Virus record (IMG/VR): IMGVR_UViG_2545824713_000005
DNA: 24,551 nt
Source: a virus
Lineage: Duplodnaviria > Heunggongvirae > Uroviricota > Caudoviricetes
Direction: 5' to 3' (one strand)
A program made the position numbers and the translations under genes. The notes below the pieces were generated by a model. That model did not search any database. It was not told where the DNA came from and saw only the letters and a list, made by a program, of their open reading frames with translations. This document shows, piece by piece, positions 1 through 21,494 of this stretch; position 1 is the stretch's first letter, and each line of letters opens with the position of its first letter.

Positions 1-2
1 CG

Positions 3-176
3 GAGGTAATACACCGTAAGAGCTGGAAAAACCGTGCAGAAGTGGAACTGGCCACACTCACGTGGGTGGACTGGTATAACAATCGACGATTGCTGGAAAG
101 GCTGGGCCATACTCCTCCGGCAGAAGCAGAAAAAGCTTATTATGCTTCCATCGGAAACGATGATCTGGCAGCCTGA
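3..176 (+). CDS. IS3-family (rve/DDE) transposase OrfB, C-terminal fragment, 5' end cut by window edge
   Basis: Frame-3 translation ends ...ELATLTWVDWYNNRRLLERLGHTPPAEAEKAYYASIGNDDLAA, stop TGA 174-176. The WYNxxR...LG...P.E tail is typical of rve-domain IS transposases. Exact IS not identified and its outer end not located. Confidence 0.55.
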   Translation, partial: EVIHRKSWKNRAEVELATLTWVDWYNNRRLLERLGHTPPAEAEKAYYASIGNDDLAA

Positions 177-529
177 GTTCACAGATAAAACACTCTCCAG
201 GAAACCCGGGGCGGTTCATTTCGATTAATGGAGGTCCCTTGCACAGATGGCAATCATGCTCAATGTCAAATTGCCATACAGGGCTTGCGATTCAGGGCGG
301 TATTAGAGCTGCTAATGATCCTTTGTATTGCGCCTAAATCCACTAAATTGATTTTCAACAATCAACTTGCCATAATTAAGTCACCGGAGTTTGAACTCCT
401 CCGGTGACTTCTGCGCTAAACGGGGACGTTTATGCGCACATACAATCCAACCTCTCTTCTCCATTCACAGATGCAGAAATGCACCTGCGATATTTTGCAT
501 CCAGCGTTTGATCTCTGCGGAGGTGAAGC

Positions 530-1797: not shown

Positions 1798-1934
1798 TGT
1801 TTGAGTTTTATATGGCAGAACTTCTTCGCCACCGCTGGATGCGCCTGCGCTTATATCGTTTCCCCGGTTCTGTTTTGACCGATTACCGAATACTGAAGAA
1901 TTACGCCAAAACACTGACAGGAGCAGGAGTATGA
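1797..1934 (+). CDS. ylcG: YlcG-like small protein (45 aa)
   Basis: [48 protein letters not shown]; ATG overlaps rusA stop (TGATG); conserved position between rusA and Q in DLP12-like prophages. Confidence 0.6.
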   Translation: MFEFYMAELLRHRWMRLRLYRFPGSVLTDYRILKNYAKTLTGAGV

Positions 1935-2019
1935 AGTCAGAGATAACAATCAACTAATACTGTTTTGTTGATTTTTGCTTGTAATTGGCGTTCTGGTCTG
2001 ATTTTTGTGGAGTAAGTTG

Positions 2020-2403
2020 ATGCGTGATATTCAGATGGTTCTTGAGCGTTGGGGAGCGTGGGCGGCTAATAATCATGAAGATGTGACCTGGTCGTCCATT
2101 GCCGCCGGTTTTAAGGGATTAATTACTTCAAAAGTAAAATCTCGCCCGCAATGTTGTGACGATGACGCGATGATTATTTGCGGGTGCATGGCCCGTCTGA
2201 AAAAGAACAACAGCGATTTGCACGATTTATTAGTAGATTATTATGTAGTCGGTATGACATTCATGTCACTGGCAGGTAAGCATTGCTGCTCTGATGGTTA
2301 TATCGGGAAAAGGTTACAGAAGGCTGAGGGCATAATTGAAGGGATGTTAATGGCATTAGATATCCGGTTAGAGATGGATATCGTTGTTAATAACTCTAAT
2401 TAA
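2020..2403 (+). CDS. quuD: Q-family late-gene antiterminator (QuuD-like, 127 aa)
   Basis: In-frame ATG inside track ORF 2005-2403: [24 protein letters not shown]...[16 protein letters not shown]...; Cys-rich zinc-binding motifs; position after rusA/ylcG. Confidence 0.85.
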
Positions 2404-2417
2404 TATGCCAATTGTTT

Positions 2418-2454
2418 ACTAAAAATTATTAAAAATGGGGCGTTGAGACGCCCC
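2418..2454 (-). terminator. Candidate intrinsic terminator for leftward (nmpC) transcription
   Basis: 7-bp GC stem GGGGCGT/ACGCCCC with 4-nt loop at 2437-2454; on the minus strand it is followed by a T-rich run (complement of AAAAATTATTAAAAAT). Confidence 0.45.
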
Positions 2455-2520
2455 CAAAAATAAAGGGTAATATATAACAGAAGGTTTATATAGTTAGAAG
2501 CAAGGTTGTGCTCCTAAAGG

Positions 2521-2581
2521 AAGTGGCTTGAGGGAGCCACTTATATGTTGGGGAGGCAAAGCCTCCCGCAACATATCTTTT
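2521..2581 (+). terminator. Two adjacent hairpins between quuD and the nmpC 3' end; candidate rightward terminator
   Basis: Hairpin AAGTGGCT-TGAGGG-AGCCACTT (2521-2542), then a long hairpin with inner stem GGGAGGC-AAA-GCCTCCC (2543-2576) followed by CTTTT on the plus strand. Confidence 0.35.
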
Positions 2582-2591
2582 AGTAATCAAA

Positions 2592-3674
2592 TTAGAACTG
2601 GTAAACCATACCTACAGCAACGATATCATCGGTAGCAACGCCAGATGCTTTCGTGAAATCGCTCTTATCAATCAGGTTGATTTTGTAATCAACAAAAGTG
2701 GACATATTTTTGTTGAAGTAATAGGTTGCACCTACATCAATATATTCAACCAGGTCCTGATCACCCCACGCACCCAAGTCTTTTCCTTTAGATTGCAGGT
2801 AAGCAACGGACGGACGCAGACCGAAGTCGAACTGATATTGTGCAACTACTTCGAAGTTTTGTGCTTTGTTGGCAATATGGTTATTACCAAAAACAGTCAT
2901 GTTCTGGGTTTCAGAATAGGTGGTAGCCAGATAGATGTTGTTCGCATCATATTTCAGACCAGCTGCCCATACTTCAGCATTTTGACCAGATGCATTCAGG
3001 CTGTTGTTACCGTAGATAACCTGATTATTAGTGCGGTCAGATTTAGCATAGGTTGCACCTACACCGAATCCTTCATACTCATAAGTAGTGGAGAAACCGA
3101 AACCATCACCATTAGCTTCAGTTACGTCAGTGCGGTCATTTTTACCCTGATACTGAGCAGCAAAGTTCAGACCATCAACCAGACCAAAGAAGTCATTGTT
3201 ACGATAAGTTGCAACACCTGTGGTGCGACCAGTCATGAATACATCTGTTTGGGTCCAGGTATCGCCACCGAATTCTGGCAGAACGTCGGTCCATGCACCA
3301 ATATCGTATGCTACACCGTAGTTACGGCCATAATCGATGGAGCCGTAGTCACCGAATTTCAGGCCAGCGAAGGCAAGACGGGTTTTATCTTTGGAGGAAC
3401 CTTGAGATTCAGCGCGGTTGCCTTTGAATTCATATTCCCACTGACCGAAACCAGTCAGTTGATCGTTGATTTGGGTTTCACCTTTGAAGCCAAGACGGGC
3501 ATAAGTAGTATCACCATCATCTGCATCATTAGAGGAGAAGTAGTGCTTAGCATTAACTTTCCCGTACAGATCCAGCTTGTTACTGTCTTTATTATAAATT
3601 TCAGCTGCCTGAGCAGACATCGCCATCAGTACTGATGCAGCTACAGCAGAAATTGCCACTGTTAATTTTTTCAT
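2592..3674 (-). CDS. nmpC: Outer-membrane general porin, NmpC/Lc (OmpC/OmpF family), apparently intact
   Basis: 360-aa protein from [23 protein letters not shown] (signal peptide) AEIYNK... to C-terminal ...VGMVYQF (terminal Phe, typical beta-barrel OMP). The track ORF 2592-3734 is an upstream extension. No IS interruption seen. Confidence 0.9.
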
Positions 3675-3734
3675 CGTGAGCCCTTTTTTTGAACTATTAT
3701 TAAAAAATGATGTCACTGCGCGATAAATATTCAT

Positions 3735-4099
3735 CTAATCAATGTGATTATTTCAAGATGTAAGTTTTGGTTTCTCATTTGATTTGTGAAGTAGATCTCT
3801 ATTTTTATCTGAACTTTTTCTATCGAATCCTATTCATGGCTCTTGGCTGAATAAAAATAAATCTATTGGCCAATTTATATTAATGGCTGTTATTTATAAG
3901 TGCTCTATAATTTGAAGGTTCAATTTAAACCAGCTAAAAATAACGCTGGAAATTATTTGTTGGTTATTTGTTGAGATTTGCTTATGTATTTGTAGTGGTG
4001 TTTTCAATACTCGGTAGCATTCTCGCAAATATCATTTAGTGGTTTACGTACGTAAAAAATTGGTTATGCTGTTAAGAGTGGTTACTTCGTCACACAGCT
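3735..4099. promoter_or_regulatory. AT-rich intergenic region: nmpC promoter/upstream region plus a candidate displaced late promoter (PR'-like, -10 TATAAT at 3906-3911)
   Basis: About 360 bp non-coding and strongly AT-rich upstream of nmpC on the minus strand; a perfect TATAAT on the plus strand lies about 195 bp before the hairpin at 4101-4133; -35 is weak. Confidence 0.35.
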
Positions 4100-4100
4100 T

Positions 4101-4133
4101 AAACCCGCCGTCGAGCGGGTTTTTCCATTTTTT
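4101..4133 (+). terminator. Intrinsic terminator upstream of the lysis genes (tR'-like)
   Basis: 8-bp stem AAACCCGC/GCGGGTTT with 6-nt loop, followed by TTTTTCCATTTTTT; about 130 bp upstream of the holin start. Confidence 0.55.
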
Positions 4134-4261
4134 GAGTCTCGATATTAGCTGATAACCCAATACCTGAGTTATTCACTGACTCCGAGTCTGTTACGTTTCT
4201 GCTTTTTTGCGATACGTTGTATTCCCTCAATTTACACCCGCTTTGTCTGCGAGGTGGGGTT

Positions 4262-4477
4262 ATGAAATCCATGGATAAGTTAACAACGGGTGTCGCCTAT
4301 GGCACCTCAGCAGGTAGTGCCGGTTACTGGTTTTTACAGCTGCTCGATAAAGTCACGCCCTCACAGTGGGCAGCAATAGGTGTGCTGGGTAGCTTGGTAT
4401 TTGGCCTGCTGACGTACCTGACAAACCTTTATTTCAAGATTAAAGAAGATAAGCGCAAGGCTGCGAGAGGTGAATAA
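4262..4477 (+). CDS. essD: Phage-21-type class II holin (pinholin) with dual-start motif
   Basis: 71-aa [71 protein letters not shown]; two TM segments; Met1-Lys-Ser-Met4 dual start; GAGGTGGGG RBS. Confidence 0.85.
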
Positions 4478-4974
4478 TGCCTCCATCATTACGAAAAGCC
4501 GTTGCTGCTGCTATTGGTGGCGGAGCAATTGCTATAGCATCAGTGTTAATCACTGGCCCAAGTGGTAACGATGGTCTGGAAGGTGTCAGCTACATACCAT
4601 ACAAAGATATCGTTGGCGTATGGACTGTATGTCACGGGCATACAGGAAAAGACATCATTCCCGGTAAAACGTATACCGAAGCAGAATGCAAAGCCCTCCT
4701 GAATAAAGACCTTGCCACGGTCGCCAGACAAATTAACCCGTACATCAAAGTCGATATACCGGAAACAACGCGCGGCGCTCTTTATTCGTTCGTCTATAAC
4801 GTGGGCGCAGGCAATTTCAGAACATCGACGCTTCTTCGCAAAATCAACCAGGGCGATATCAATGGCGCATGTGACCAGCTACGTCGCTGGACATACGCTG
4901 GCGGTAAGCAATGGAAAGGGCTGATGACTCGCCGTGAGATTGAGCGTGAAGTCTGTTTGTGGGGGCAGCAATGA
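4477..4974 (+). CDS. rrrD: SAR endolysin (lysozyme, R21-like)
   Basis: 165 aa; N-terminal signal-anchor-release segment [20 protein letters not shown], then lysozyme core (EG.SY...D..G.WT); start overlaps holin stop (TAATG). Confidence 0.85.
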
Positions 4975-6064: not shown

Positions 6065-6490
6065 ATGGCGACTGAGAAAAAGAATGTCGGTCGCCCTTCG
6101 GATTACCTGCCGGAGGTGGCTGATGATATCTGTGCGCTGCTTGCCTCCGGGGAAAGTCTGGTTAAGGTTTGCAAGCGCCCAGGCATGCCAGCAAAGGCTA
6201 CTGTATTTCGCTGGCTGTCAGAGCATGAAGAATTTAGAGACAAGTACGCGAAGGCAACTGAGGCACGAGCTGATTCTATTTTCGAAGAGATATTCGAAAT
6301 TGCTGACACTGCGATTCCAGATGCTGCTGAGGTGGCAAAGGCAAGACTTCGCGTTGATACCCGCAAATGGGCGCTGGCCCGAATGAATCCCCGTAAGTAT
6401 GGCGACAAGGTAACTAACGAGCTTGTCGGCAAAGACGGCGGCGCAATCCAGATTGAAACATCACCGATGAGCACTCTATTCGGAAAATGA
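6065..6490 (+). CDS. Terminase small subunit (Sf6 gp1-like, 141 aa)
   Basis: MATEKKNVGRPSDYLPEVADDICALLASGESLVKVCKRPGMPAKATVFRWL... HTH-type small terminase; length matches the recalled Sf6 gp1; lies immediately upstream of the large terminase. Confidence 0.85.
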   Translation: MATEKKNVGRPSDYLPEVADDICALLASGESLVKVCKRPGMPAKATVFRWLSEHEEFRDKYAKATEARADSIFEEIFEIADTAIPDAAEVAKARLRVDTRKWALARMNPRKYGDKVTNELVGKDGGAIQIETSPMSTLFGK

Positions 6491-7899
6491 CCTCGATTAA
6501 TCCTATCTTTGAACCGTTCATTGAGGCGCATCGCTACAAAGTCGCCAAAGGCGGTCGAGGTAGCGGTAAATCATGGGCAATTGCGAGACTGCTTGTTGAA
6601 GCGGCGCGTCGGCAGCCAGTGCGTATTCTCTGTGCTCGTGAACTGCAAAACAGTATCAGCGATTCGGTAATCCGGCTGCTTGAAGACACCATAGAGCGTG
6701 AAGGGTATACGGCTGAGTTTGAAATTCAGCGTTCCATGATTCGTCATCTCGGAACGAATGCTGAGTTCATGTTCTACGGCATCAAAAACAACCCGACGAA
6801 GATTAAATCGCTCGAAGGCATTGATATCTGCTGGGTGGAAGAAGCGGAAGCGGTAACGAAGGAATCATGGGATATCCTGATACCAACCATCCGCAAGCCA
6901 TTTTCCGAAATATGGGTGAGCTTCAACCCGAAAAACATCCTCGACGATACCTATCAGCGATTCGTTGTAAATCCTCCCGATGATATTTGTCTGCTGACGG
7001 TGAACTACACCGACAACCCGCACTTTCCTGAAGTTCTCCGTCTGGAGATGGAAGAGTGCAAACGCAGAAATCCGACACTGTATCGTCACATCTGGCTTGG
7101 TGAGCCAGTGAGCGCAAGTGATATGGCAATCATCAAACGTGAATGGCTTGAAGCCGCAACCGATGCGCACAAGAAACTCGGATGGAAAGCGAAAGGCGCT
7201 GTTGTCTCTGCGCATGATCCATCAGATACAGGGCCAGATGCTAAAGGTTACGCATCGCGTCACGGTTCGGTAGTTAAGCGTATTGCCGAAGGTCTGCTGA
7301 TGGACATCAACGAGGGCGCTGATTGGGCTACTTCGCTGGCGATTGAAGACGGCGCTGACCATTACCTGTGGGATGGTGATGGTGTTGGTGCCGGGCTACG
7401 CAGACAGACAACAGAAGCGTTCTCCGGCAAGAAAATCACCGCCACGATGTTCAAGGGCAGCGAATCGCCATTCGATGAAGGTGCACCATATCAGGCCGGA
7501 GCATGGGCTGATGAAGTCGTGCAGGGCGACAACGTTCGCACTATTGGCGATGTGTTCCGTAATAAGCGAGCGCAATTCTATTACGCGCTGGCTGACAGGC
7601 TGTATCTGACATATCGGGCGGTTGTCCACGGTGAGTATGCAGACCCCGACGACATGCTGAGTTTCGACAAAGAAGCGATAGGCGAGAAGATGCTGGAGAA
7701 GCTGTTTGCAGAACTGACGCAGATTCAGCGCAAATTCAATAACAACGGGAAGCTGGAGCTAATGACTAAGGTCGAAATGAAGCAGAAGCTCGGTATTCCA
7801 TCTCCTAACCTGGCTGATGCGCTGATGATGTGTATGCATTGCCCGGCATTGGTCCGCGAAGAAACAGAAATATACGTCCCCTCATCCTCCGGTTGGTAA
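6487..7899 (+). CDS. Terminase large subunit (ATPase/nuclease)
   Basis: 470 aa; Walker A VAKGGRGSGKSWAIA near the N-terminus; ATGA overlap with the small terminase stop. Confidence 0.9.
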   Translation: MTSINPIFEPFIEAHRYKVAKGGRGSGKSWAIARLLVEAARRQPVRILCARELQNSISDSVIRLLEDTIEREGYTAEFEIQRSMIRHLGTNAEFMFYGIKNNPTKIKSLEGIDICWVEEAEAVTKESWDILIPTIRKPFSEIWVSFNPKNILDDTYQRFVVNPPDDICLLTVNYTDNPHFPEVLRLEMEECKRRNPTLYRHIWLGEPVSASDMAIIKREWLEAATDAHKKLGWKAKGAVVSAHDPSDTGPDAKGYASRHGSVVKRIAEGLLMDINEGADWATSLAIEDGADHYLWDGDGVGAGLRRQTTEAFSGKKITATMFKGSESPFDEGAPYQAGAWADEVVQGDNVRTIGDVFRNKRAQFYYALADRLYLTYRAVVHGEYADPDDMLSFDKEAIGEKMLEKLFAELTQIQRKFNNNGKLELMTKVEMKQKLGIPSPNLADALMMCMHCPALVREETEIYVPSSSGW

Positions 7900-7901
7900 A
7901 C

Positions 7902-10028
7902 ATGGCAGAGACATTAGAGAAAAAACATGAGCGGATCATGCTCAGGTTTGACCGCGCCTATTCTCCACAGAAGGAAGTGCGCGAAAAGTGCATTGAAGCT
8001 ACGAGGTTTGCTCGTGTCCCCGGAGGTCAATGGGAAGGAGCAACGGCGGCTGGAACTAAGCTTGATGAGCAGTTCGAGAAGTATCCTAAGTTTGAAATCA
8101 ATAAGGTAGCAACTGAACTTAACCGCATCATTGCAGAATACCGCAATAACAGAATCACCGTTAAGTTTCGTCCTGGTGACAGAGAGGCAAGCGAAGAGTT
8201 AGCCAATAAATTAAATGGTCTGTTCCGTGCTGACTACGAAGAAACTGATGGCGGTGAGGCTTGCGATAATGCATTTGACGACGCTGCTACTGGTGGTTTC
8301 GGTTGCTTCCGTTTGACGTCGATGCTGGTCAATGAATACGACCCCATGGACGATCGTCAGCGTATTGCTATTGAACCAATATACGACCCGTCGCGCTCTG
8401 TGTGGTTTGACCCTGACGCTAAGAAGTACGACAAATCTGACGCGTTGTGGGCGTTCTGTATGTATTCGTTGTCACCTGAAAAATATGAGGCTGAATACGG
8501 AAAGAAACCTCCTGCTTCTCTGGATGTAACGTCTATGACCAGTTGGGAATATAACTGGTTTGGTGCAGATGTTATTTACATAGCGAAGTATTACGAAGTT
8601 CGTAAAGAGTCTGTTGACGTCATCAGTTATCGACATCCAATCACTGGAGAGATTGCAACATACGACAGTGATCAGGTTGAAGATATTGAAGATGAACTGG
8701 CAATAGCTGGATTTCAGGAAGTGGCAAGGCGCTCAGTGAAGCGCCGTCGTGTGTATGTATCCGTAGTGGATGGTGATGGTTTCCTTGAGAAACCTCGACG
8801 TATTCCTGGTGAGCATATCCCCCTCATCCCGGTTTATGGAAAACGCTGGTTCATTGATGACATTGAGCGTGTCGAAGGGCACATTGCAAAAGCAATGGAT
8901 CCACAGCGTTTGTACAACCTTCAGGTTTCAATGCTGGCTGATACTGCAGCGCAAGACCCCGGTCAGATCCCTATAGTTGGCATGGAGCAAATTCGTGGAC
9001 TTGAGAAGCACTGGGAGGCTCGCAACAAGAAACGCCCAGCGTTCTTGCCGTTGCGCGAAGTGAGAGATAAATCTGGCAACATTATCGCTGGAGCTACCCC
9101 GGCAGGATATACACAGCCTGCGGTTATGAATCAGGCATTGGCTGCATTACTACAGCAAACCAGTGCTGATATTCAGGAGGTTACAGGCGGCAGTCAGGCC
9201 ATGCAGCAGATGCCAAGTAATATTGCTCAGGAAACGGTTAACAACTTGATGAACAGAGCAGATATGGCTTCGTTTATCTATCTGGACAATATGGCGAAAA
9301 GTCTTAAACGCGCTGGTGAAGTATGGCTGTCAATGGCGCGTGAAGTGTACGGTTCAGAACGTGAAGTGCGCATCGTTAACGAAGATGGAAGTGATGATAT
9401 CGCTGTCCTGAGCGCACAGGTTGTTGACAGGCAAACAGGGGCTGTTGTTGCGTTAAATGACCTTTCTGTCGGTCGATACGATGTGACGGTTGATGTTGGA
9501 CCAAGCTACACAGCACGACGTGATGCAACGGTTTCTGTACTGACAAATGTCCTTAGCTCTATGCTTCCAACAGACCCAATGCGCCAGGCAATTCAGGGTA
9601 TTATTCTGGACAATATCGATGGCGAAGGCCTTGATGACTTCAAAGAGTACAACCGAAACCAACTGCTGATATCTGGTATTGCAAAACCACGCAATGAGAA
9701 AGAGCAGCAGATTGTTCAACAGGCGCAAATGGCAGCACAAAGCCAGCCAAATCCTGAAATGGTTCTCGCTCAGGCGCAAATGGTAGCAGCGCAGGCAGAA
9801 GCGCAAAAAGCAACTAACGAAACTGCTCAAACTCAAATCAAAGCATTTACTGCCCAGCAGGATGCGATGGAGAGTCAGGCAAACACTGTCTATAAACTGG
9901 CTCAAGCCAGAAACATCGATGACAAAGCAGTGATGGAGGCAATACGCCTTCTGAAAGATGTCGCCGAGTCACAACAACAGCAATTCCAGTCACCACCACA
10001 GTCACCGGCAGACTTAATGCCGAGTTAA
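7902..10028 (+). CDS. Portal protein (P22 gp1 / Sf6 gp3-like, 708 aa)
   Basis: Start placed at ATG 7902 just after the terL stop (MAETLEKKHERIMLRF...); the track ORF from 7830 overlaps terL. Conserved core ...KRRRVY...GEHIPLIPVYG... resembles P22 portal; Q/A-rich C-terminal tail. Confidence 0.9.
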   Translation: MAETLEKKHERIMLRFDRAYSPQKEVREKCIEATRFARVPGGQWEGATAAGTKLDEQFEKYPKFEINKVATELNRIIAEYRNNRITVKFRPGDREASEELANKLNGLFRADYEETDGGEACDNAFDDAATGGFGCFRLTSMLVNEYDPMDDRQRIAIEPIYDPSRSVWFDPDAKKYDKSDALWAFCMYSLSPEKYEAEYGKKPPASLDVTSMTSWEYNWFGADVIYIAKYYEVRKESVDVISYRHPITGEIATYDSDQVEDIEDELAIAGFQEVARRSVKRRRVYVSVVDGDGFLEKPRRIPGEHIPLIPVYGKRWFIDDIERVEGHIAKAMDPQRLYNLQVSMLADTAAQDPGQIPIVGMEQIRGLEKHWEARNKKRPAFLPLREVRDKSGNIIAGATPAGYTQPAVMNQALAALLQQTSADIQEVTGGSQAMQQMPSNIAQETVNNLMNRADMASFIYLDNMAKSLKRAGEVWLSMAREVYGSEREVRIVNEDGSDDIAVLSAQVVDRQTGAVVALNDLSVGRYDVTVDVGPSYTARRDATVSVLTNVLSSMLPTDPMRQAIQGIILDNIDGEGLDDFKEYNRNQLLISGIAKPRNEKEQQIVQQAQMAAQSQPNPEMVLAQAQMVAAQAEAQKATNETAQTQIKAFTAQQDAMESQANTVYKLAQARNIDDKAVMEAIRLLKDVAESQQQQFQSPPQSPADLMPS

Positions 10029-10041
10029 CCAGGAGTAATCA

Positions 10042-10926
10042 ATGGAAAACGAACTGATCATCGACGGTCAGGTTATTGACCTGTCTGAAGCACAGGAAAA
10101 TGCAGAAGAAACCATCATCCAAACAGAGTCACAGCCTGAGAATGAAAGCCAGGATGACAACGGTAAAGAGGTGGCAACTGAGCCTGAAAAAACCGAAGAG
10201 ACACCAGAAGATTACGCCTTGCGTATTGGTGATGAAGAAATTCAGCTTAACGCTGACGATGATGATCACATTGACGGGCAACCTGCACCGCAATGGGTGA
10301 AAGATCTTCGCAAAGGCTTCAAAGAAACACAGAAAGAAAACCGTGAGTTGCGCCGCCAGCTTGAGGAAGCATTAGCCAAGCCAGCGGAACATCAGCAACC
10401 ACAACCAGACGCTATTCCACCAAAACCGACTCTTGAGTCGTGTGATTATGACGAACAGGCGTTTGAACAGGCATTGACTGATTGGCATGAGAAAAAAGGC
10501 CGTGTCGAACAGCAGCAGCAACAAAAACTACGTCAGCAACAGGAATACCAGCAGCGTTTCCAGCAAAGGGTAGAAGCGCATAAACAACGGGCAGCCAAAC
10601 TTCCTGTGAAAGATTATCAGGAAATGGAAGCCATTGTTCTTAGTGAGCTACCACCAATTCAGCAGGAAATCATCATTCACTGTGCAGACGAAGGCTCTGA
10701 ACTACTCGCCTATGGCTTAGGTAAGAGCCAGCAATTACGCCAGCGTGTAGCCGCTGAGACAGATCCAATTCGCGCAGCATTCCTCTTGGGGCAGATTAGC
10801 AAACAGGTAAGCCTTGCTCCAAAACCAAAGAAAGCCATCAAGCCAGAGCCGGAAGTACGTGGTGGCGGTGCTGATGCGAAACAAGACGAATTCAACAAAT
10901 TATGCCCCGGCGCAAAAATCGAATAA
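10042..10926 (+). CDS. Scaffolding protein (P22 gp8-like, 294 aa)
   Basis: Acidic N-terminus, Q/E/R-rich predicted coiled coil; sits between portal and coat; AGGAG RBS. Confidence 0.75.
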   Translation: MENELIIDGQVIDLSEAQENAEETIIQTESQPENESQDDNGKEVATEPEKTEETPEDYALRIGDEEIQLNADDDDHIDGQPAPQWVKDLRKGFKETQKENRELRRQLEEALAKPAEHQQPQPDAIPPKPTLESCDYDEQAFEQALTDWHEKKGRVEQQQQQKLRQQQEYQQRFQQRVEAHKQRAAKLPVKDYQEMEAIVLSELPPIQQEIIIHCADEGSELLAYGLGKSQQLRQRVAAETDPIRAAFLLGQISKQVSLAPKPKKAIKPEPEVRGGGADAKQDEFNKLCPGAKIE

Positions 10927-10937
10927 GGAAAAGATAA

Positions 10938-12209
10938 ATGCCTAACAATCTCGACAGTAACGTCAGTCAAATCGTTCTGAAAAAATTCCTTCCGGGTTTT
11001 ATGTCAGATTTAGTTCTGGCGAAAACCGTAGACCGTCAGTTGCTGGCAGGTGAAATCAACTCCAGCACTGGCGATAGCGTTAGCTTTAAACGTCCGCATC
11101 AATTCTCATCCCTCCGTACTCCCACTGGTGATATTTCAGGGCAAAATAAAAACAACCTGATCTCAGGTAAAGCTACGGGGCGTGTAGGTAACTACATCAC
11201 TGTTGCTGTTGAATATCAGCAACTGGAGGAAGCGATCAAGCTTAACCAGCTGGAAGAAATTCTCGCGCCGGTTCGCCAGCGAATCGTTACCGACCTTGAA
11301 ACAGAGCTTGCTCACTTCATGATGAATAACGGTGCGTTGTCACTTGGTAGCCCCAATACTCCAATCACCAAATGGTCTGATGTTGCGCAGACGGCATCTT
11401 TCCTGAAAGACCTCGGCGTTAATGAAGGTGAAAACTATGCTGTAATGGATCCATGGTCTGCACAGCGACTTGCTGATGCGCAGACTGGTTTGCACGCTTC
11501 AGATCAATTGGTTCGTACTGCATGGGAGAATGCACAGATCCCAACCAATTTTGGCGGCATTCGCGCACTGATGTCTAATGGGCTTGCCTCTCGTACGCAG
11601 GGGGCATTTGGCGGAACACTGACAGTCAAAACACAGCCAACTGTTACCTATAACGCAGTTAAAGACTCATACCAGTTCACTGTAACATTGACCGGAGCGA
11701 CAGCCAGCGTTACAGGTTTTCTGAAAGCTGGTGATCAGGTTAAATTCACCAATACCTACTGGCTGCAACAGCAGACCAAACAGGCGTTGTATAACGGAGC
11801 CACACCAATTAGCTTCACTGCAACGGTTACTGCTGATGCTAATTCAGACAGCAGTGGCGATGTGACGGTTACGCTTTCTGGTGTTCCGATTTATGACACT
11901 ACAAACCCGCAGTACAACTCTGTAAGTCGTCAGGTAGCGGCAGGCGATGCCGTATCTGTAGTAGGCACTGCTAGCCAGACAATGAAGCCAAACCTGTTCT
12001 ATAACAAGTTCTTCTGTGGACTTGGCTCTATCCCACTGCCGAAACTGCACAGTATTGATTCTGCTGTTGCAACATATGAAGGTTTCTCCATCCGCGTACA
12101 TAAATACGCAGATGGCGATGCCAACGTGCAAAAAATGCGCTTTGACTTACTGCCTGCATATGTGTGCTTTAACCCTCACATGGGCGGTCAGTTCTTCGGT
12201 AATCCGTAA
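10938..12209 (+). CDS. Major capsid (coat) protein (P22 gp5 / Sf6 gp5-like, 423 aa)
   Basis: Gene order and size; followed by a strong intrinsic terminator, as expected for a highly expressed coat gene. Confidence 0.85.
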   Translation: MPNNLDSNVSQIVLKKFLPGFMSDLVLAKTVDRQLLAGEINSSTGDSVSFKRPHQFSSLRTPTGDISGQNKNNLISGKATGRVGNYITVAVEYQQLEEAIKLNQLEEILAPVRQRIVTDLETELAHFMMNNGALSLGSPNTPITKWSDVAQTASFLKDLGVNEGENYAVMDPWSAQRLADAQTGLHASDQLVRTAWENAQIPTNFGGIRALMSNGLASRTQGAFGGTLTVKTQPTVTYNAVKDSYQFTVTLTGATASVTGFLKAGDQVKFTNTYWLQQQTKQALYNGATPISFTATVTADANSDSSGDVTVTLSGVPIYDTTNPQYNSVSRQVAAGDAVSVVGTASQTMKPNLFYNKFFCGLGSIPLPKLHSIDSAVATYEGFSIRVHKYADGDANVQKMRFDLLPAYVCFNPHMGGQFFGNP

Positions 12210-12213
12210 TAAC

Positions 12214-12240
12214 AAGGGGCTTCCGCCCCTTTTATGTTTT
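12214..12240 (+). terminator. Intrinsic terminator after coat gene
   Basis: AAGGGGC-TTCC-GCCCCTT hairpin followed by TTTTATGTTTT, 5 bp after the coat stop. Confidence 0.6.
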
Positions 12241-12251
12241 AAGGAAACAAT

Positions 12252-12437
12252 ATGGATCGCATGAGTGTATTCCTTGCCGCAGATAACGAATCCGGACATG
12301 TACAGGCCGTTATCGCAGAAAAAGACTTCCAGTTTTTCGAAAAGTTGGGCTTTGTTGCCTCAGTTGATGAATTGAAACCGACCAGTAAGCGAGGTCGTAA
12401 GGCGGCAGACAATGGCAACAGTACTGACAAAGGGTGA
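12252..12437 (+). CDS. Hypothetical small protein (61 aa)
   Basis: ATG with AAGGAAA RBS right after the coat terminator; MDRMSVFLAADNESGHVQAVIAEKDF...; 3' end overlaps next gene start. Confidence 0.4.
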   Translation: MDRMSVFLAADNESGHVQAVIAEKDFQFFEKLGFVASVDELKPTSKRGRKAADNGNSTDKG

Positions 12438-12894
12438 GATCGTCCTTTTTGCGCTTCGTAAGTTTGCTATTGCTTCTAATGCATCGCTGACTGATGTTGA
12501 GCCGCAATCAATTGAAGATGGTGTAAATGATCTGGAAGATATGATGTCCGAGTGGATGATTAACCCCGGCGACATTGGTTACGCTTTCGCAACTGGAGAT
12601 GAGCAGCCATTACCAGATGATGAGTCAGGTCTTCCAAGAAAATACAAACACGCAGTAGGCTATCAGTTATTGCTGAGAATGCTATCTGATTACAGCCTTG
12701 AGCCAACTCCGCAAGTTCTCAGTAACGCCCAACGCTCATATGATGCCTTGATGACCGACACTCTGGTTGTTCCTTCAATGCGACGACGTGGAGATTTTCC
12801 TGTAGGACAGGGTAATAAATATGACGTGTTTACATCTGACCGATATTATCCAGGCGATCTCCCTATGATTGATGGCGATATCCCAAACGCATAG
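12412..12894 (+). CDS. Head-completion / tail accessory factor (P22 gp4-like)
   Basis: 160 aa; LTDVEPQS and DLE.MM.EW motifs resemble the recalled P22 gp4; position after coat. Confidence 0.7.
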   Translation: MATVLTKGEIVLFALRKFAIASNASLTDVEPQSIEDGVNDLEDMMSEWMINPGDIGYAFATGDEQPLPDDESGLPRKYKHAVGYQLLLRMLSDYSLEPTPQVLSNAQRSYDALMTDTLVVPSMRRRGDFPVGQGNKYDVFTSDRYYPGDLPMIDGDIPNA

Positions 12895-12902
12895 GTGAAT
12901 AA

Positions 12903-14321
12903 ATGCCGATTCAGCAACTTCCGCTTATGAAAGGTGTCGGCAAAGACTTTCGAAACGCCGACTATATCGACTATCTGCCAGTGAATATGCTGGCTACACC
13001 AAAAGAAATCCTTAACAGCAGCGGATATCTTCGCTCATTCCCGGGCATTGCCAAACGTTCTGATGTGAACGGTATATCGCGCGGCGTCGAGTACAACATG
13101 GCGCAGAGTGCTGTATATCGCGTGTGTGGGGGCAAGCTGTATAAGGGCGAAAGCGAAGTCGGTGATGTTGCCGGAAGTGGTCGTGTATCAATGGCGCATG
13201 GTCGGACATCTCAGGCTGTAGGCGTTAATGGTCAACTGGTAGAGTATCGCTATGATGGCACGGTTAAAACAGTCTCAAACTGGCCTACAGACAGCGGATT
13301 CACTCAGTATGAGTTAGGTTCGGTTCGCGACATTACTCGTTTACGTGGGCGTTATGCGTGGTCAAAAGACGGCACTGATTCATGGTTTATCACTGACCTT
13401 GAAGACGAATCGCATCCTGACCGTTACAGCGCACAATATCGTGCCGAGTCTCAGCCGGACGGCATCATCGGTATCGGGACATGGCGAGACTTCATCGTCT
13501 GCTTTGGTTCATCGACTATTGAATATTTCTCCCTGACTGGCGCAACCACCGTTGGTGCTGCTTTGTATGTCGCACAGCCATCACTGATGGTGCAAAAAGG
13601 CATCGCCGGGACTTACTGCAAAACGCCGTTTGCTGATTCGTATGCGTTCATCAGCAATCCGGCAACGGGTGCGCCGTCTGTATACATCATCGGCTCCGGT
13701 CAGGTGTCACCAATCGCCAGCGCGAGCATTGAGAAAATCCTCCGCTCCTACACTGCTGATGAACTGGCTGATGGTGTGATGGAATCGCTGCGATTTGATG
13801 CTCATGAGTTGCTGATTATCCACCTTCCGCGCCATGTTCTCGTGTACGACGCATCTTCAAGCGCCAATGGTCCGCAATGGTGTGTGCTGAAAACAGGTCT
13901 GTATGACGATGTGTACCGCGCTATCGACTTCATTTACGAAGGCAATCAGATAACGTGCGGCGATAAACTGGAGTCCGTGACCGGGAAATTGCAATTCGAC
14001 ATCAGCAGCCAGTACGACAAGCAACAGGAACACCTGCTGTTTACTCCACTGTTCAAAGCGGATAACGCCAGATGCTTCGATCTGGAGGTGGAATCATCCA
14101 CTGGCGTAGCTCAGTACGCCGACCGCCTGTTCCTCTCTGCAACCACTGACGGCATAAATTACGGGCGTGAGCAGATGATTGAACAGAATGAACCGTTCAT
14201 TTACGACAAACGTGTTTTGTGGAAGCGTGTCGGGCGCATCAGGAAAAATGTCGGCTTCAAATTGCGCGTTATCACGAAGTCACCTGTCACTCTGTCAGGC
14301 TGCCAGATAAGGATCGAGTAA
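12903..14321 (+). CDS. Tail hub protein (P22 gp10-like, 472 aa)
   Basis: Size identical to the recalled P22 gp10 and conserved order gp4-gp10-gp26. Confidence 0.75.
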
Positions 14322-15169
14322 TGGCTGATTCGAATCTCAATGAGCCGGTAATCATTCAGGCTACACGACTCGACACATCAGTCCTTCCACGCAATATCTT
14401 CTCGCAGTCATATCTGCTGTACGTTATCGCACAGGGTACTGATGTTGGTAACGTGGCGAACAAGGCCAACGAAGCAGGGCAGGGCGCTTATGATGCACAA
14501 GTCAGGAACGATGAGCAGGATGTGATTCTCTCTGACCATGAGCAACGAATTTCTGCTGCGGAAGCAACGCTTGTTAATCATGAGGAGCGAATCAGCCAGG
14601 CAGAATCAACTCTTCAGGAACATGAAACGCGAATCACTCAGAATGAAAGCGATATTGCGTCGCTTGATACCAGAGTTCAGTCGCTGGAATCGCAGGTTTC
14701 AGACCATGAAACGCGCATCGATGCTCTGGAGTATGCCACTACTCGCAAGAAGTCAGAGGTTGTTTACTCTGGCGTATCAGTAACCATTCCGACAGCGCCG
14801 ACCAACCTTGTTAGCCTGCTGAAAACGCTCACGCCGTCATCCGGCACGTTGGCACCATTCTTCGACACCGTTAACAACAAGATGGTTGTGTTCAACGAGA
14901 ACAAAACCTTGTTCTTCAAGCTGTCGATCGTCGGGACGTGGCCCAGCGGAACCGCAAACAGGTCAATGCAGCTAACCTTTTCCGGCTCTGTTCCTGACAC
15001 ACTGGTCAGCAGTCGTAATGCGGAGACAACAACCGACAACATCCTGTTAGCTACGTTCTTCAGCGTGGATAAAGACGGCTTTCTTGCCACAAATGGCAGT
15101 ACGTTAACCATTCAGTCAAATGGGGCGGCGTTTACTGCCACAACCATCAAGATAATCGCGGAGCAGTAA
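14321..15169 (+). CDS. Tail needle / cell-puncturing protein (P22 gp26-like, Sf6-type with C-terminal knob, 282 aa)
   Basis: Start at [43 protein letters not shown] (resembles P22 gp26 N-terminus); heptad-repeat trimeric coiled coil (HE.RI...E.TL repeats); C-terminal beta-rich domain; TAATG overlap with gp10. Confidence 0.85.
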
Positions 15170-15624
15170 TGATTCAGTTCAAACCAACGCGAAACATCGA
15201 CCTGATCGAAGCAGTCGGAAATCACCCTGACATTATTGCCGGAAGCAACAACGGTGATGGATACGACTACAAGCCTGAATGCCGTTACTTTGAGGTGAAC
15301 GTGCACGGGCAGTTCGGCGGCATTGTTTACTATCAGGAGATTCAGCCGCTGACATTCGATTGCCACGCCATGTACCTGCCAGAGATTCGCGGCTTCAGCA
15401 AGGAAATCGGGCTGGCGTTCTGGCGATACATTCTGACTAACACCACCGTTCAGTGCGTCACATCGTTCGCCGCACGCAAATTCCGCCACGGGCAGATTTA
15501 CTGCGCAATGATTGGCCTTAAGCGTGTAGGAACCATCAAGAAATACTTCAAAGGCGTGGATGATGTGACTTTTTACAGCGCAACACGCGAAGAACTAATC
15601 GACTTCCTGAATCACGGGAGATAG
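15169..15624 (+). CDS. P22 gp14-like protein (151 aa)
   Basis: Position between tail needle and ejection proteins; start overlaps needle stop (TAATG). Confidence 0.55.
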   Translation: MIQFKPTRNIDLIEAVGNHPDIIAGSNNGDGYDYKPECRYFEVNVHGQFGGIVYYQEIQPLTFDCHAMYLPEIRGFSKEIGLAFWRYILTNTTVQCVTSFAARKFRHGQIYCAMIGLKRVGTIKKYFKGVDDVTFYSATREELIDFLNHGR

Positions 15625-15626
15625 CC

Positions 15627-16319
15627 ATGTTATATGCATTTAAGATGGGCAGAAAACTGCGTGGCGAGGAACCTTATTGCCCTGAAAAAGGCGGGAAAGG
15701 TGGCAGTTCTGATAAAAGCGCAAAGTATGCAGCAGAAGCTCAGAAGTATGCCGCAGACCTGCAAAATCAGCAGTTCAACACCATCATGAATAACCTGAAG
15801 CCGTTTACTCCTCTGGCTGAGAAGTATGTCGGCAGCCTCGAAAACTTATCGTCTCTGGAGGGGCAAGGTCAGGCACTTAACCAGTATTACAACTCTCAGC
15901 AGTATAAAGACCTTGCAGGTCAGGCTCGCTATCAGAGTCTGGCGGCAGCGGAAGCAACAGGTGGATTGGGTTCCACCGCAACCAGTAATCAGTTAGCAAC
16001 AATCGCACCAACGCTTGGTCAGCAATGGCTATCTGGACAAATGAACAATTACAACAACCTGGCAAATATCGGTCTTGGCGCTCTTCAGGGACAGGCAAAC
16101 GCCGGGCAAACATATGCCAACAACATGAGTCAGATTTCGCAGCAAAGTGCGGCTCTTGCAGCGGCAAATGCCAACAGACCATCAGCAATGCAATCTGCTA
16201 TTGGCGGAGGTGCGTCTGGTGCTATTGCTGGGGCCGGACTTGCGAAATTAATTGGTTCATCAACTCCGTGGGGGGCTGCGATCGGCGGCGGTCTTGGTCT
16301 GCTTGGCTCGTTGTTTTAA
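15627..16319 (+). CDS. Ejection (internal virion) protein, P22 gp7-like (230 aa)
   Basis: Size and order; Q/N/A-rich with C-terminal Gly/Ala-rich hydrophobic segment (AIGGGASGAIAGAGLAKLIG...GGGLGLLGSLF). Confidence 0.7.
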   Translation: MLYAFKMGRKLRGEEPYCPEKGGKGGSSDKSAKYAAEAQKYAADLQNQQFNTIMNNLKPFTPLAEKYVGSLENLSSLEGQGQALNQYYNSQQYKDLAGQARYQSLAAAEATGGLGSTATSNQLATIAPTLGQQWLSGQMNNYNNLANIGLGALQGQANAGQTYANNMSQISQQSAALAAANANRPSAMQSAIGGGASGAIAGAGLAKLIGSSTPWGAAIGGGLGLLGSLF

Positions 16320-16329
16320 GGGGTAATCA

Positions 16330-19748: not shown

Positions 19749-19756
19749 AAAGTTGG

Positions 19757-20077
19757 TTAGCGGTTGATGGTTGCTTTTTTCGGGTCATACCATCTCGGCC
19801 ATTCTTTCAGGAATGGGAATGAGTCGGGAGCGTGGTTCTTTTTGTACGATTTAAGCAGCCTTAACCGCTCAATCGCACACTCATAAACCTCTTGTTGCCC
19901 TGTAGTCATCTCGGTCCATGAAAGGTGATCCATTGATAAGACAACGTTTTCAGCTTCTTTTATGAGGGCGTTTTTATTTCTCACCGCAGCAGCATGGCTG
20001 ACAGAGCAATCCTGCCATATTCTTAAAAGCCAAATAGCTAAGCAGATGAAAAAAATGGTAGAGAGCGATATGTACAT
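19757..20077 (-). CDS. Hypothetical single-pass membrane protein (106 aa), last gene of the mnt-side leftward cluster
   Basis: MYISLSTIFFICLAIWLLRIWQD... N-terminal TM helix; AAGGAG RBS; AT-rich codon usage unlike the flanking structural genes; convergent with gp16, 8 bp apart. Confidence 0.55.
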   Translation of the reverse strand: MYISLSTIFFICLAIWLLRIWQDCSVSHAAAVRNKNALIKEAENVVLSMDHLSWTEMTTGQQEVYECAIERLRLLKSYKKNHAPDSFPFLKEWPRWYDPKKATINR

Positions 20078-20157
20078 GCCGATCTCCTTAGATTTATCAA
20101 TGCTGCATGATTTTCAACAGACATCAATCATGCAGCTATAGGTAATAAATCAAGAAA

Positions 20158-21237: not shown

Positions 21238-21330
21238 GTCGCTCTCCTGTTATTTGTTGACATGCTAGAACGGTAGTAGTACGCTTTCAATAGTAGTACG
21301 GTGCTATCATTTAATGGAATGGAGTGGAAT
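21238..21330. promoter_or_regulatory. Divergent overlapping Pmnt / Pant promoter-operator region
   Basis: Plus strand TTGACA at 21257-21262 (Pant -35); on the minus strand -35 TTGAAA (21285-21290) and -10 TAGCAT (21262-21267) with 17-bp spacing (Pmnt); two direct copies of TAGTAGTACG at 21274-21283 and 21291-21300. Confidence 0.5.
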
Positions 21331-21492: not shown

Positions 21493-21494
21493 AG

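What the first reader, a model, noticed from the sequence alone, without database searches (positions are those of the whole stretch)
2404..4136. Intact NmpC/Lc-type porin moron between Q and the lysis genes, opposite strand, insulated by terminators
A complete 360-aa general porin with signal peptide and C-terminal Phe lies on the minus strand between the antiterminator gene and the holin. It has its own AT-rich upstream region and hairpins on both sides. In E. coli K-12 the equivalent DLP12 gene is recalled to be disrupted by IS5; here it looks intact, so the prophage may contribute an expressed outer-membrane porin (lysogenic conversion, possible altered permeability or phage-receptor profile).
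Basis: partly seen in the sequence, partly recalled or inferred. Interest (0 to 1): 0.5.

Follow-up and report, generated by a model that had tools for sequence, protein, structure and literature searches.

The report
Intact prophage porin gene (NmpC/Lc)
This is an intact copy of the long-known NmpC/Lc outer-membrane pore gene that lambda-like prophages carry into E. coli and Shigella; it is real and probably expressed, but it is common and already described.

Summary
A 360-aa general porin (window 3674->2592, minus strand) lies between the antiterminator Q gene (2020-2403) and a phage-21-type holin (4262-4477). It has a signal peptide, a C-terminal Phe, an AT-rich upstream region (28% GC) and hairpins on both sides.

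It is an NmpC/Lc-type porin:
- 90-91% amino-acid identity to phage PA-2 Lc and to K-12 NmpC with IS5 removed.
- Flanking DNA 98-100% identical to DLP12.
- K-12's IS5 disruption is confirmed; this copy has none.

The exact protein occurs on at least 1000 public contigs, and 2465 of 5426 complete E. coli genomes hold most of the locus. NmpC is reported in outer-membrane proteomes of wild strains. The finding is therefore already known.

Two refinements:
1. The holin-side hairpin is a plus-strand terminator. It belongs to a block homologous to the mapped late promoter (pR') leader of Shiga-toxin phages. The porin cassette therefore sits between Q and its late promoter, outside the late operon. 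That hairpin is the candidate late terminator, not a porin insulator.
2. This allele is a mosaic. The 5' third matches K-12, and the part encoding the C-terminal half, where the variable segments lie, is replaced (71-90% DNA identity).

Expression was not tested here.

The parts
2020..2403 (+). Antiterminator Q gene (QuuD-type, 127 aa; the mechanical ORF starts at TTG 2005)
   Evidence: Pfam Phage_antitermQ E=4e-53. Annotated quuD in the 100%-identical locus of E. coli 600468. 78-81% aa identity to the Q of Stx phages. Weak match to solved Q21.
2437..2454 (-). Intrinsic terminator of the porin transcript (7-bp GC-rich stem, then ATTTTTAATAATTTTT down to about 2421)
   Evidence: Terminator scan, RNA fold. 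This segment is 100% identical to K-12 DLP12.
2471..2576 (-). Four additional stable hairpins in the porin 3'UTR (2576-2543, 2542-2521, 2517-2494, 2492-2471). On the plus strand the long 2543-2576 hairpin is followed by CTTTTAG, so it could weakly stop read-through from Q (inference).
   Evidence: Fold of 2420-2594 minus strand: -63.2 kcal/mol against -31 +/- 3 for shuffles, z=-10.5. Inverted repeats.
2592..3674 (-). Porin CDS, 360 aa (NmpC/Lc type). Signal peptide is codons 1-23 (3674-3606), mature protein starts AEIYNKD, C-terminal YQF.
2592..3350 (-). Replaced (mosaic) part of the gene. It encodes the C-terminal half, where the indel-bearing variable segments lie. 71-90% DNA identity to K-12/PA-2, against 98-100% for the rest of the locus.
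   Evidence: 100-column identity scan along the DNA alignment. Protein alignment: all but 2 differences from NmpC lie after residue 180.
3675..4040 (-). AT-rich porin regulatory region and 5'UTR (28-33% GC). Shine-Dalgarno AAGGG at about 3681-3685. The promoter itself is not mapped.
   Evidence: Composition, sequence. 96-100% identical to K-12 nmpC upstream DNA.
3782..3802 (.). CRP-like site ATTTGTGAAGTAGATCTCTAT (8 of 10 half-site matches), centred about 118 bp upstream of the porin ATG
   Evidence: Annotated as a CRP binding site in the PA-2 GenBank record. Mapped to the window and scored.
4043..4077 (+). Late-promoter (pR') homologue: -35 TTTACG 4043-4048, 16-nt spacer, -10 TATGCT 4065-4070, inferred start site 4075-4077
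   Evidence: Conserved block shared with Stx2 phage II, Sakai Sp5, SfII, PA-2 and DLP12. In Sakai Sp5 the equivalent start lies 258-260 nt before the end of the tR' T-run, matching the reported 258-nt pR'-to-tR' distance from dRNA-seq and Term-seq (PMC7547250).
4101..4135 (+). Plus-strand terminator-like hairpin (AAACCCGC-CGTCGA-GCGGGTTT) plus T-run, at about +25 to +60 of the late leader: candidate tR'
   Evidence: Terminator scan. Invariant in the 5-phage alignment. It is the only terminator-like site between the promoter block and the holin.
4262..4477 (+). Phage-21-type holin/antiholin (MKSM dual start), first gene of the late and lysis operon
   Evidence: Pfam Phage_holin_2_1 E=2e-35. essD in the annotated relatives.

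Best explanation
Window 3674->2592 encodes an intact NmpC/Lc-type general diffusion porin. It is a 'moron': a self-contained accessory gene with its own promoter region and terminator, carried by a lambdoid prophage.

Shown:
- The gene is complete and has every sequence hallmark of an OmpF/OmpC-family trimeric porin.
- It occupies the same slot as lc of phage PA-2 and nmpC of DLP12, with near-identical flanking DNA.
- It is transcribed opposite to Q and the lysis genes.
- It lies upstream of the late-promoter homologue, so it is outside the late operon.

Inferred:
- In the lysogen it is transcribed from its own host-type promoter in the AT-rich region. That transcription is likely CRP-dependent and higher at 37 C, as reported for lc/nmpC.
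- The protein is exported by Sec, inserted by BAM through the C-terminal Phe signal, and forms an extra trimeric pore.
- This changes outer-membrane permeability and the surface presented to phages, colicins and antibodies.
- The mRNA ends at the 2454..2437 terminator after a heavily structured 3'UTR.
- The late genes stay silent because pR' transcripts stop at the 4101-4135 hairpin until Q is made.

The allele is a recombinant. Its C-terminal half, which holds the variable segments, is swapped relative to K-12/PA-2, as expected for a surface antigen or receptor under diversifying pressure.
For: Intact ORF and family:
- Full-length ORF.
- Porin_1 E=3e-153 over the whole profile.
- E about 1e-137 to 1e-120 against solved OmpK37, OmpC, PhoE and OmpF chains over residues 24-360.
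- Conserved [32 protein letters not shown] and GR motifs aligned with OmpF/OmpC/PhoE.

Identity and locus:
- 90.1% identity over all 365 alignment columns, 91.4% over the 360 ungapped columns, to both Lc and reconstructed NmpC.
- Same locus as quuD-nmpC-essD in DLP12 and PA-2.
- Flanks and 5' third 98-100% identical to K-12.

Frequency:
- Exact protein on at least 1000 contigs, named 'outer membrane porin protein LC' or 'porin OmpD'.
- 2465 of 5426 complete E. coli genomes hold at least 80% of the locus, and 43 phage records match.

Expression precedent:
- NmpC found by nLC-MS/MS in 89% of UPEC isolates (PMC9609314).
- nmpC mRNA and protein higher at 37 C in CFT073 (PMC12890032).
- nmpC mRNA reported as a RybB target (PMC3333887).
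- CRP site annotated in PA-2 and conserved here.

Position of the late promoter.
Against: - No expression data exist for this window. The promoter and start site of the porin are not mapped here, and the simple sigma-70 scan found no consensus promoter in 3675-4040.
- Intact nmpC can be silent: the title of Prilipov et al. 1998, as cited in PMC3333887, describes nmpC and ompN as 'quiescent porin genes' in E. coli B^E.
- The assignment of pR' rests on homology and distance arithmetic in a related phage, not on mapping in this element. In Stx phages transcripts evidently pass the equivalent first hairpin and end at +258, so the efficiency of this hairpin as a terminator is uncertain.
- Trimer formation, pore properties and the loop positions of the variable segments were not modelled or measured.
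Confidence: 0.9

Rival explanations
1. The porin gene is intact but transcriptionally silent in the lysogen (for example H-NS-silenced AT-rich promoter). It would then be a quiescent passenger with no conversion phenotype under ordinary conditions.
For: The upstream region is 28% GC, a typical target for xenogeneic silencing (inference). No consensus sigma-70 promoter was scored there. The title of Prilipov et al. 1998, as cited in PMC3333887, calls nmpC and ompN 'quiescent porin genes' in E. coli B^E.
Against: NmpC protein is reported in most UPEC outer-membrane proteomes (PMC9609314). It is strongly induced at 37 C in CFT073 at both RNA and protein level (PMC12890032). The exact intact protein is kept on at least 1000 contigs, which fits a gene under purifying selection.
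Confidence: 0.2
2. The porin is part of the Q-dependent late region, like stx in Stx phages. Late transcripts from a promoter just after Q would read antisense through it, so the two flanking terminators would act as insulators.
For: In the canonical cassette pR' directly follows Q (bioRxiv 10.1101/651190). Hairpins exist on both sides of the gene.
Against: The sequence block that overlaps the Q stop codon and carries the mapped pR' start in Stx phages is found here at 4042-4124, downstream of the porin cassette and next to the holin. SfII has the same block next to its holin, with two reverse-strand genes between it and Q. The 2404-2440 region after Q has no promoter-like match. The Q-side scored terminator is on the minus strand, and the holin-side one is on the plus strand downstream of the promoter block.
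Confidence: 0.06
3. It is a copy of the host's own ompC (as RefSeq names it) or ompD, captured by chance and not a phage-adapted gene.
For: NCBIfam 'porin OmpC' subfamily model scores 518, above its cut-off of 484. 79% identity to the porin at the yddG/smvA (ompD) locus of Salmonella arizonae.
Against: Only 64% identity to K-12 OmpC, 62% to OmpF and 65% to PhoE. The gene is always found between Q and the holin in 43 phage records and in DLP12-like prophages. A dedicated PHROG family spans its full length. An ancient capture from the OmpD lineage is likely, but the gene is now a stable phage module.
Confidence: 0.04

Closest known systems
Lc porin (protein 2) of lambdoid phage PA-2 (GenBank J02580)
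   Same: Same gene slot and orientation. 90-91% aa identity with an identical signal peptide and first 98 residues. Shared upstream DNA, including the annotated CRP site and the late-promoter block (95.6% over 3735-4261).
   Different: 360 aa against 365 aa. The segments around residues 181-188, 218-235 and 268-272, and scattered C-terminal residues, differ. The host phage here has a P22/Sf6-type virion module, not a lambda-type one.
NmpC of the defective prophage DLP12 (qsr') of E. coli K-12
   Same: Same locus quuD-nmpC-essD. Flanks and the 5' third of the gene are 98-100% identical in DNA.
   Different: The K-12 copy is split by IS5B after codon 346, while this one is uninterrupted. The 3' two-thirds of the gene is a different allele (71-90% DNA identity). 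K-12 also lacks 19 bp of the late leader.
OmpD, chromosomal porin of Salmonella, Citrobacter and Enterobacter
   Same: Closest chromosomal lineage: 76-79% aa identity, full length.
   Different: OmpD sits between yddG and smvA on the chromosome. This gene is prophage-borne between Q and the holin.
OmpC, OmpF and PhoE of E. coli K-12
   Same: Same family and fold class. Same constriction-loop motif PEFGGD and the same conserved basic and acidic pore residues.
   Different: 62-65% identity. Different locus and regulatory DNA. The PhoE-specific Lys in the FMTKRASG segment is Gly here. RefSeq's name 'porin OmpC' for this gene is a naming artefact.
Q-pR'-tR' late cassette of Stx phages (933W/Sp5), source of the StxS RNA
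   Same: Related Q (78-81% aa). About 80 bp of promoter and initial transcribed region, with the first hairpin, is conserved (77% identity).
   Different: In Stx phages the block abuts Q, and the morons (tRNAs, stx) lie downstream of it, inside the late transcript. Here a reverse-strand cassette separates Q from the block. The StxS-forming 3' part of the 258-nt leader is absent.

Membership tests
General bacterial porin (OmpF/OmpC/PhoE family, Pfam Porin_1) | Full-length match to the family profile | tested here: met
   Porin_1 positions 1-337 of 337, E=3e-153. E down to 2e-137 against solved porins over residues 23/24-360.
General bacterial porin (OmpF/OmpC/PhoE family, Pfam Porin_1) | Cleavable N-terminal signal peptide and C-terminal aromatic (Phe) assembly signal | tested here: met
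   [23 protein letters not shown]|AEIYNKD is identical to the annotated PA-2 signal peptide. The protein ends ...VGMVYQF.
General bacterial porin (OmpF/OmpC/PhoE family, Pfam Porin_1) | Constriction-loop PEFGGD motif with acidic residues facing a conserved basic cluster | tested here: met
   [25 protein letters not shown] and GR are all aligned with and identical to OmpF/OmpC/PhoE. Which residues face the pore is taken from established OmpF structures, not modelled here.
General bacterial porin (OmpF/OmpC/PhoE family, Pfam Porin_1) | 16-stranded beta-barrel trimer with pore activity | not tested
It is inferred from 62-79% identity to characterised porins.
NmpC/Lc porin of lambdoid prophages | High identity to Lc (PA-2) and NmpC (DLP12) | tested here: met
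   329 identical of 360 ungapped columns (91.4%), or of 365 total columns (90.1%), for both. Lc and NmpC are 98.9% identical to each other.
NmpC/Lc porin of lambdoid prophages | Located between antiterminator Q and the holin/lysis genes, on the opposite strand | tested here: met
NmpC/Lc porin of lambdoid prophages | Shared non-coding flanks (regulatory region, terminator) | tested here: met
   98-100% identity to K-12 for 2403-2565 and 96-100% for 3350-4147.
NmpC/Lc porin of lambdoid prophages | Expressed in lysogens as a major outer-membrane protein, with catabolite and temperature control | not testable with these tools
   Indirect only: conserved CRP-like site and literature on other strains.
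OmpC (the name given by RefSeq/PGAP) | Orthology with E. coli ompC (micF-ompC locus, high identity) | tested here: not met
   63.8% identity to K-12 OmpC. The locus is a prophage, not micF/rcsD. Only the broad NF007841 subfamily cut-off is passed.
OmpD (Salmonella-type chromosomal porin) | Chromosomal locus between yddG and smvA | tested here: not met
   The Salmonella arizonae homologue has yddG and smvA/TetR flanks. The window gene has Q and holin flanks. Identity is 79%.
Q-dependent late transcription unit (pR', pause element, terminator) | Promoter homologous to a mapped pR', with a terminator before the first late gene | tested here: met
   Block 4042-4124 aligns with the Stx-phage pR' region. 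The Sakai start site is consistent with the published 258-nt pR'-to-tR' distance. Terminator-like site at 4101-4135.
Q-dependent late transcription unit (pR', pause element, terminator) | Q binding, sigma-dependent pause and antitermination at this site | not testable with these tools
   No Q-binding element is defined for this Q type in the sources read. Q21 is only distantly related.

The most novel reading that the evidence does not exclude
The interval between Q and its displaced late promoter may be a recurrent docking slot for reverse-strand accessory genes. Examples are the porin here and in DLP12/PA-2, and two unknown genes in SfII; a reverse-strand lipocalin follows Q in 1H12, but no pR' block was located there. 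Such genes would be expressed in the lysogen independently of Q. After induction they would be crossed antisense only by N-antiterminated early transcripts coming through Q, which would shut them off. In this P22/Sf6-type prophage the variable-segment porin might also displace OmpC-type secondary receptors and so exclude related phages.
Probability: 0.2. Interest if true: 0.35.

Novelty: already known. Interest (0 to 1): 0.15.

Why it matters
An extra expressed porin can change antibiotic and nutrient permeability, and it alters the surface seen by phages, colicins and antibodies. That makes it a genuine lysogenic-conversion trait. However, nmpC/lc has been studied since the 1970s-80s, and intact copies are present in nearly half of complete E. 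coli genomes.

This window adds three small things:
- A clean example of an intact, recombinant allele whose C-terminal half is replaced.
- A reminder that RefSeq mislabels the gene as 'OmpC'.
- A clearer map showing that the cassette lies between Q and the late promoter, not inside the late operon.

Tried and rejected
- Rfam scan of 1800-4600 at E<=1 gave only a sub-threshold Trp_leader hit at 4006-4128 (20.8 bits against a cut-off of 41). I treated it as chance; it overlaps the terminator hairpin.
- The sigma-70 consensus scan found no promoter in the porin upstream region or after Q, so the porin promoter stays unmapped.
- I looked for the phage-21 late-promoter and Q-binding sequences in the Q21 structure papers. 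The sequences are only in figures that are not held, and this Q is only distantly related to Q21 (E=8e-7 over 80 residues), so that route was dropped.
- The putative -35, -10 and 'rho-dependent terminator' annotated in the Stx2 phage II record (L006 3091-3208) were not used as pR'. The conserved block and the published 258-nt distance place the start about 150 nt further upstream; the annotated terminator is the tR' hairpin.
- I suspected a frameshift in the close phage allele ev243, which is annotated as two ORFs. The DNA alignment shows no indel, so the split is an annotation choice.
- The classical papers (Highton 1985, Prilipov 1998, Ruan 2011) are not held. A search for phage PA-2 literature found nothing usable. 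Statements about PA-2 biology beyond the GenBank record therefore rest on background knowledge.
- No structure prediction or large homology search was run, because identity to characterised porins made them unnecessary.
Full report
**1. The observation**

The minus strand of the window carries an ORF from 3734 to 2592 (380 aa from the first ATG). The biologically sensible start is the ATG at 3674 (MKKLTVAIS...), which gives 360 aa plus stop. It is preceded by AAGGG at the right distance for a ribosome-binding site.

The first 23 residues ([23 protein letters not shown]) are identical to the signal peptide annotated in the phage PA-2 lc record. The mature protein starts AEIYNKD and ends ...VYQF.

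- Pfam Porin_1 matches over its whole length, 1-337 of 337, E=3e-153.
- PHROG 410 matches 1-360 of 360.
- Solved porins (OmpK37, OmpC, OmpK36, PhoE, OmpF) match residues 24-360 with E from 1e-137 to 1e-116.

This is a real, uninterrupted gene, not a chance ORF.

On the plus strand it is flanked upstream by an antiterminator Q gene ending at 2403 (Phage_antitermQ, E=4e-53). Downstream lie a phage-21-type holin (4262-4477), a lysozyme (4477-4974) and Rz/Rz1.

The region upstream of the porin start is 28-29% GC over 3701-4000, against roughly 45-55% in the neighbouring genes. Terminator-like hairpins exist on both sides: minus strand 2454..2437 and plus strand 4101..4122.

**2. What it is**

The 1733-bp interval is 100% identical to a stretch of the E. 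coli 600468 chromosome. There it lies in a DLP12-like prophage between quuD and essD and is annotated 'porin OmpC', WP_000737275.1. The encoded protein is identical.

- Phage PA-2 (J02580) matches over the full interval at 91.3% DNA identity.
- The K-12 MG1655 annotation shows nmpC at the same position, split by IS5B into 1040-nt and 58-nt fragments.
- Joining those fragments restores a 365-aa ORF that is 98.9% identical to Lc.
- The window protein shares 329 identical residues with each. That is 90.1% over all 365 alignment columns and 91.4% over the 360 ungapped columns.
- Identity to K-12 OmpC, OmpF and PhoE is only 62-65%.
- The nearest chromosomal lineage is the OmpD-type porin: 79% identity to the Salmonella arizonae gene flanked by yddG and smvA.

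The hallmark family motifs are all conserved in the alignment with OmpF/OmpC/PhoE. They are the PEFGGD constriction-loop motif with its preceding Asp, the YGK, YARLGF and KTRLAF basic residues, and the GR of the FMTGR segment.

The name 'OmpC' in RefSeq comes from a broad NCBIfam subfamily model (518 bits against a cut-off of 484) and is misleading.

**3. How common it is**

- 4223 of 5426 complete E. coli genomes give some match, and 2465 hold at least 80% of the interval.
- 43 phage records match.
- The exact 360-aa protein is recorded on at least 1000 contigs (the counter's ceiling). Source names include 'outer membrane porin protein LC' and 'porin OmpD [Shigella sonnei]'.

The literature already covers the main points:
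- Many pathogenic E. coli carry an intact nmpC/ompD while K-12 has a pseudogene (PMC2808357; PMC3333887).
- NmpC was detected by nLC-MS/MS in 89% of UPEC isolates (PMC9609314).
- nmpC homologues are strongly induced at 37 C at RNA and protein level in CFT073 (PMC12890032).

The finding is correct but already known.

**4. Refinement 1: the allele is a mosaic**

A 100-column identity scan against K-12 (IS5 removed) and PA-2 gave three zones:
- 98-100% identity for the Q-proximal flank (2403-2565).
- 96-100% from 3350 through the promoter region to 4147.
- 71-90% for 2566-3350.

At protein level all but two differences from NmpC lie after residue 180. They are concentrated in three segments:
- GKNDR[TDV---TEA] against [SDFDNYTEG].
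- DRT[[16 protein letters not shown]] against [DTQVNAGKVLPEVFASGK].
- F[GNNHI] against F[ADHFV].

Scattered C-terminal changes make up the rest. In the family alignment these are the indel-rich segments. In solved porins such segments are external loops; that is established knowledge and was not modelled here. An intragenic recombination that swaps surface loops is what one expects of a receptor or antigen. PMC2808357 likewise notes greater divergence of NmpC/OmpD than of other porins.

**5. Refinement 2: where the late promoter is**

The canonical Q cassette is the Q gene followed directly by pR', a sigma-dependent pause element and a terminator (bioRxiv 10.1101/651190). The Q here is 78-81% identical to the Q of Stx phages.

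Window 4042-4124 aligns at 77% with the segment of Stx2 phage II that overlaps the Q stop codon and continues downstream:

GTTTACG..CGTAAAAA..TAT..TG.TAAGAGTGGTTAC...CAC.CAG..AACCCGCCG..GCGGGTTTTT

The same block is present in Sakai Sp5, SfII, PA-2 and DLP12, and its core is invariant in a five-way alignment.

Sy et al. mapped the Sp5 pR' start by dRNA-seq and the tR' 3' end by Term-seq, 258 nt apart (PMC7547250). In Sakai Sp5, counting back from the end of the tR' T-run puts the start at A/G/A inside GATAAGAG. That is 5-7 nt after the TATCAT -10 of the block.

The homologous positions in the window are:
- -35 TTTACG at 4043-4048.
- -10 TATGCT at 4065-4070.
- Start at about 4075-4077.

So the late promoter lies after the porin cassette, about 185 nt before the holin start. 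The porin sits between Q and pR'.

SfII shows the same layout, with two reverse-strand genes between Q and the block. Phage 1H12 has a reverse-strand lipocalin gene directly after a related Q, but the block was not found in the part of that locus I searched.

Two consequences follow:
- The plus-strand hairpin and T-run at 4101-4135 (+25 to +60 of the leader) is the only terminator-like signal before the holin. It is best read as the late terminator that keeps the lysis genes off. It is not an insulator for the porin.
- Q-modified late transcription never crosses the porin gene.

One caution applies. In Stx phages transcripts evidently continue past the equivalent hairpin to +258, so its efficiency here is unproven.

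The second 'CRP site' in the PA-2 record (window 4077-4097) falls on +1 to +22 of this leader. It is conserved in phages without the porin. I think it is part of the late-promoter machinery and not a CRP site.

**6. The Q-proximal side**

The 175 nt after the porin stop fold into five hairpins on the minus strand, at 2576-2543, 2542-2521, 2517-2494, 2492-2471 and 2454-2437. The fold energy is -63.2 kcal/mol against -31 +/- 3 for shuffles, z=-10.5.

Only the last hairpin is followed by a T-run (ATTTTTAATAATTTTT) and scores as an intrinsic terminator.

Read on the plus strand, the long 2543-2576 hairpin is followed by CTTTTAG. It might damp read-through from Q into the antisense of the porin, but that is inference only. 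On this side the word 'terminator' is justified.

**7. Mechanism**

Shown:
- The gene is intact.
- It has all the family hallmarks.
- It has its own terminator.
- It has an upstream region conserved with nmpC/lc, including a CRP-like site at 3782-3802 with 8 of 10 half-site matches.
- It lies outside the late transcription unit.

Inferred:
- Transcription in the lysogen from a host-type promoter in the AT-rich region. The promoter is not mapped, and the consensus scan found none.
- CRP and temperature control as reported for relatives.
- Sec export and BAM insertion.
- A trimeric pore that adds to or displaces OmpC/OmpF.

Because 3350-3847 is 98-100% identical to K-12, regulation described for the K-12 nmpC 5' region, such as RybB targeting (PMC3333887), should carry over.

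From background knowledge, not verified here: PA-2 lysogens make 'protein 2' under catabolite control with reduced OmpC, which is the PA-2 receptor. Also from background knowledge, Sf6-type phages use OmpA/OmpC as secondary receptors. The virion genes in this window are P22/Sf6-type, with an Sf6 small terminase, a P22 portal and coat, and a tailspike head-binding domain. A superinfection-exclusion role is therefore conceivable but untested.

**8. Verdict**

- Observation: confirmed.
- Interpretation: correct on identity, intactness and the contrast with K-12. Only partly correct on 'insulated by terminators'.
- Novelty: already known.
- Interest: low (0.15).
- Residual value: the map of the Q | reverse-strand accessory gene | pR' arrangement, the recombinant allele, and the annotation misnomer.

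Noticed in passing
window 1-230: The window opens inside the 3' end of an IS3-family transposase ORF (42-176, ...WYNNRRLLERLGHTPPAEAEKAYY...). It hits transposase PHROGs and lies just upstream of the ybcN-like gene at 530-985. This suggests an IS element inserted in the nin region of the prophage.
   Followed up: partly
window 4077-4097 (= PA-2 J02580 record positions 1067-1087): The second 'CRP binding site' annotated in the 1986 PA-2 record coincides with +1 to +22 of the late-promoter leader. That leader is conserved in Stx phages and SfII, which lack the porin. It is probably part of the Q-loading or pause region and not a CRP site for lc.
   Followed up: partly
window ~4206-4224, against L003 (K-12 DLP12): K-12 DLP12 lacks 19 bp of the late leader (CTGCTTTTTTGCGATA... 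region) that are present in the window, PA-2 and SfII. The effect on essD expression is unknown.
   Followed up: no
window 2471-2576: Four stable hairpins are packed between the porin stop codon and its terminator; the whole 3'UTR folds with z=-10.5. Their function is unknown. Possibilities are mRNA stabilisation, a barrier to convergent transcription from Q, or a recombination scar.
   Followed up: partly
window 6065-24411: The virion module is P22/Sf6-like: Sf6-type small terminase, P22 portal, coat, gp10-type stabilisation protein, Ant-like antirepressor at 21495-22496, and a tailspike with a P22 head-binding domain at 22597-24411. It is joined to a DLP12-like nin-Q-porin-lysis segment. No complete E. 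coli genome carries 80% or more of the window in one place; the best covers 71%.
   Followed up: partly
window 2592-3674; RefSeq WP_000737275.1: RefSeq/PGAP names this prophage porin 'porin OmpC', and phage records call it OmpD, OmpC or NmpC. PHROG 410, which spans its whole length, is labelled 'unknown function'. The names are inconsistent for one well-characterised gene.
   Followed up: yes
L012 (Shigella phage SfII) 2582-4196; L007 (phage 1H12) 3535-4059: Other phages carry different reverse-strand genes directly after Q. SfII has two hypothetical proteins, which sit between Q and the pR' block. 1H12 has a Blc-type lipocalin, but no pR' block was located in that locus.
   Followed up: partly
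window 19757-20998, minus strand: Three reverse-strand ORFs (106, 170 and 115 aa) lie between the ejection-protein genes and the antirepressor. Two of them (106 and 115 aa) match PHROGs of unknown function; the 170-aa ORF has no Pfam match and was not scanned against PHROGs. They may be another accessory-gene cluster.
   Followed up: no
L002 (PA-2 Lc) residue 99: PA-2 Lc has His where the window, NmpC, OmpF, OmpC and PhoE all have the conserved pore-lining Arg (KTRLAF). This may be a sequencing error in the 1986 record or a real variant.
   Followed up: no
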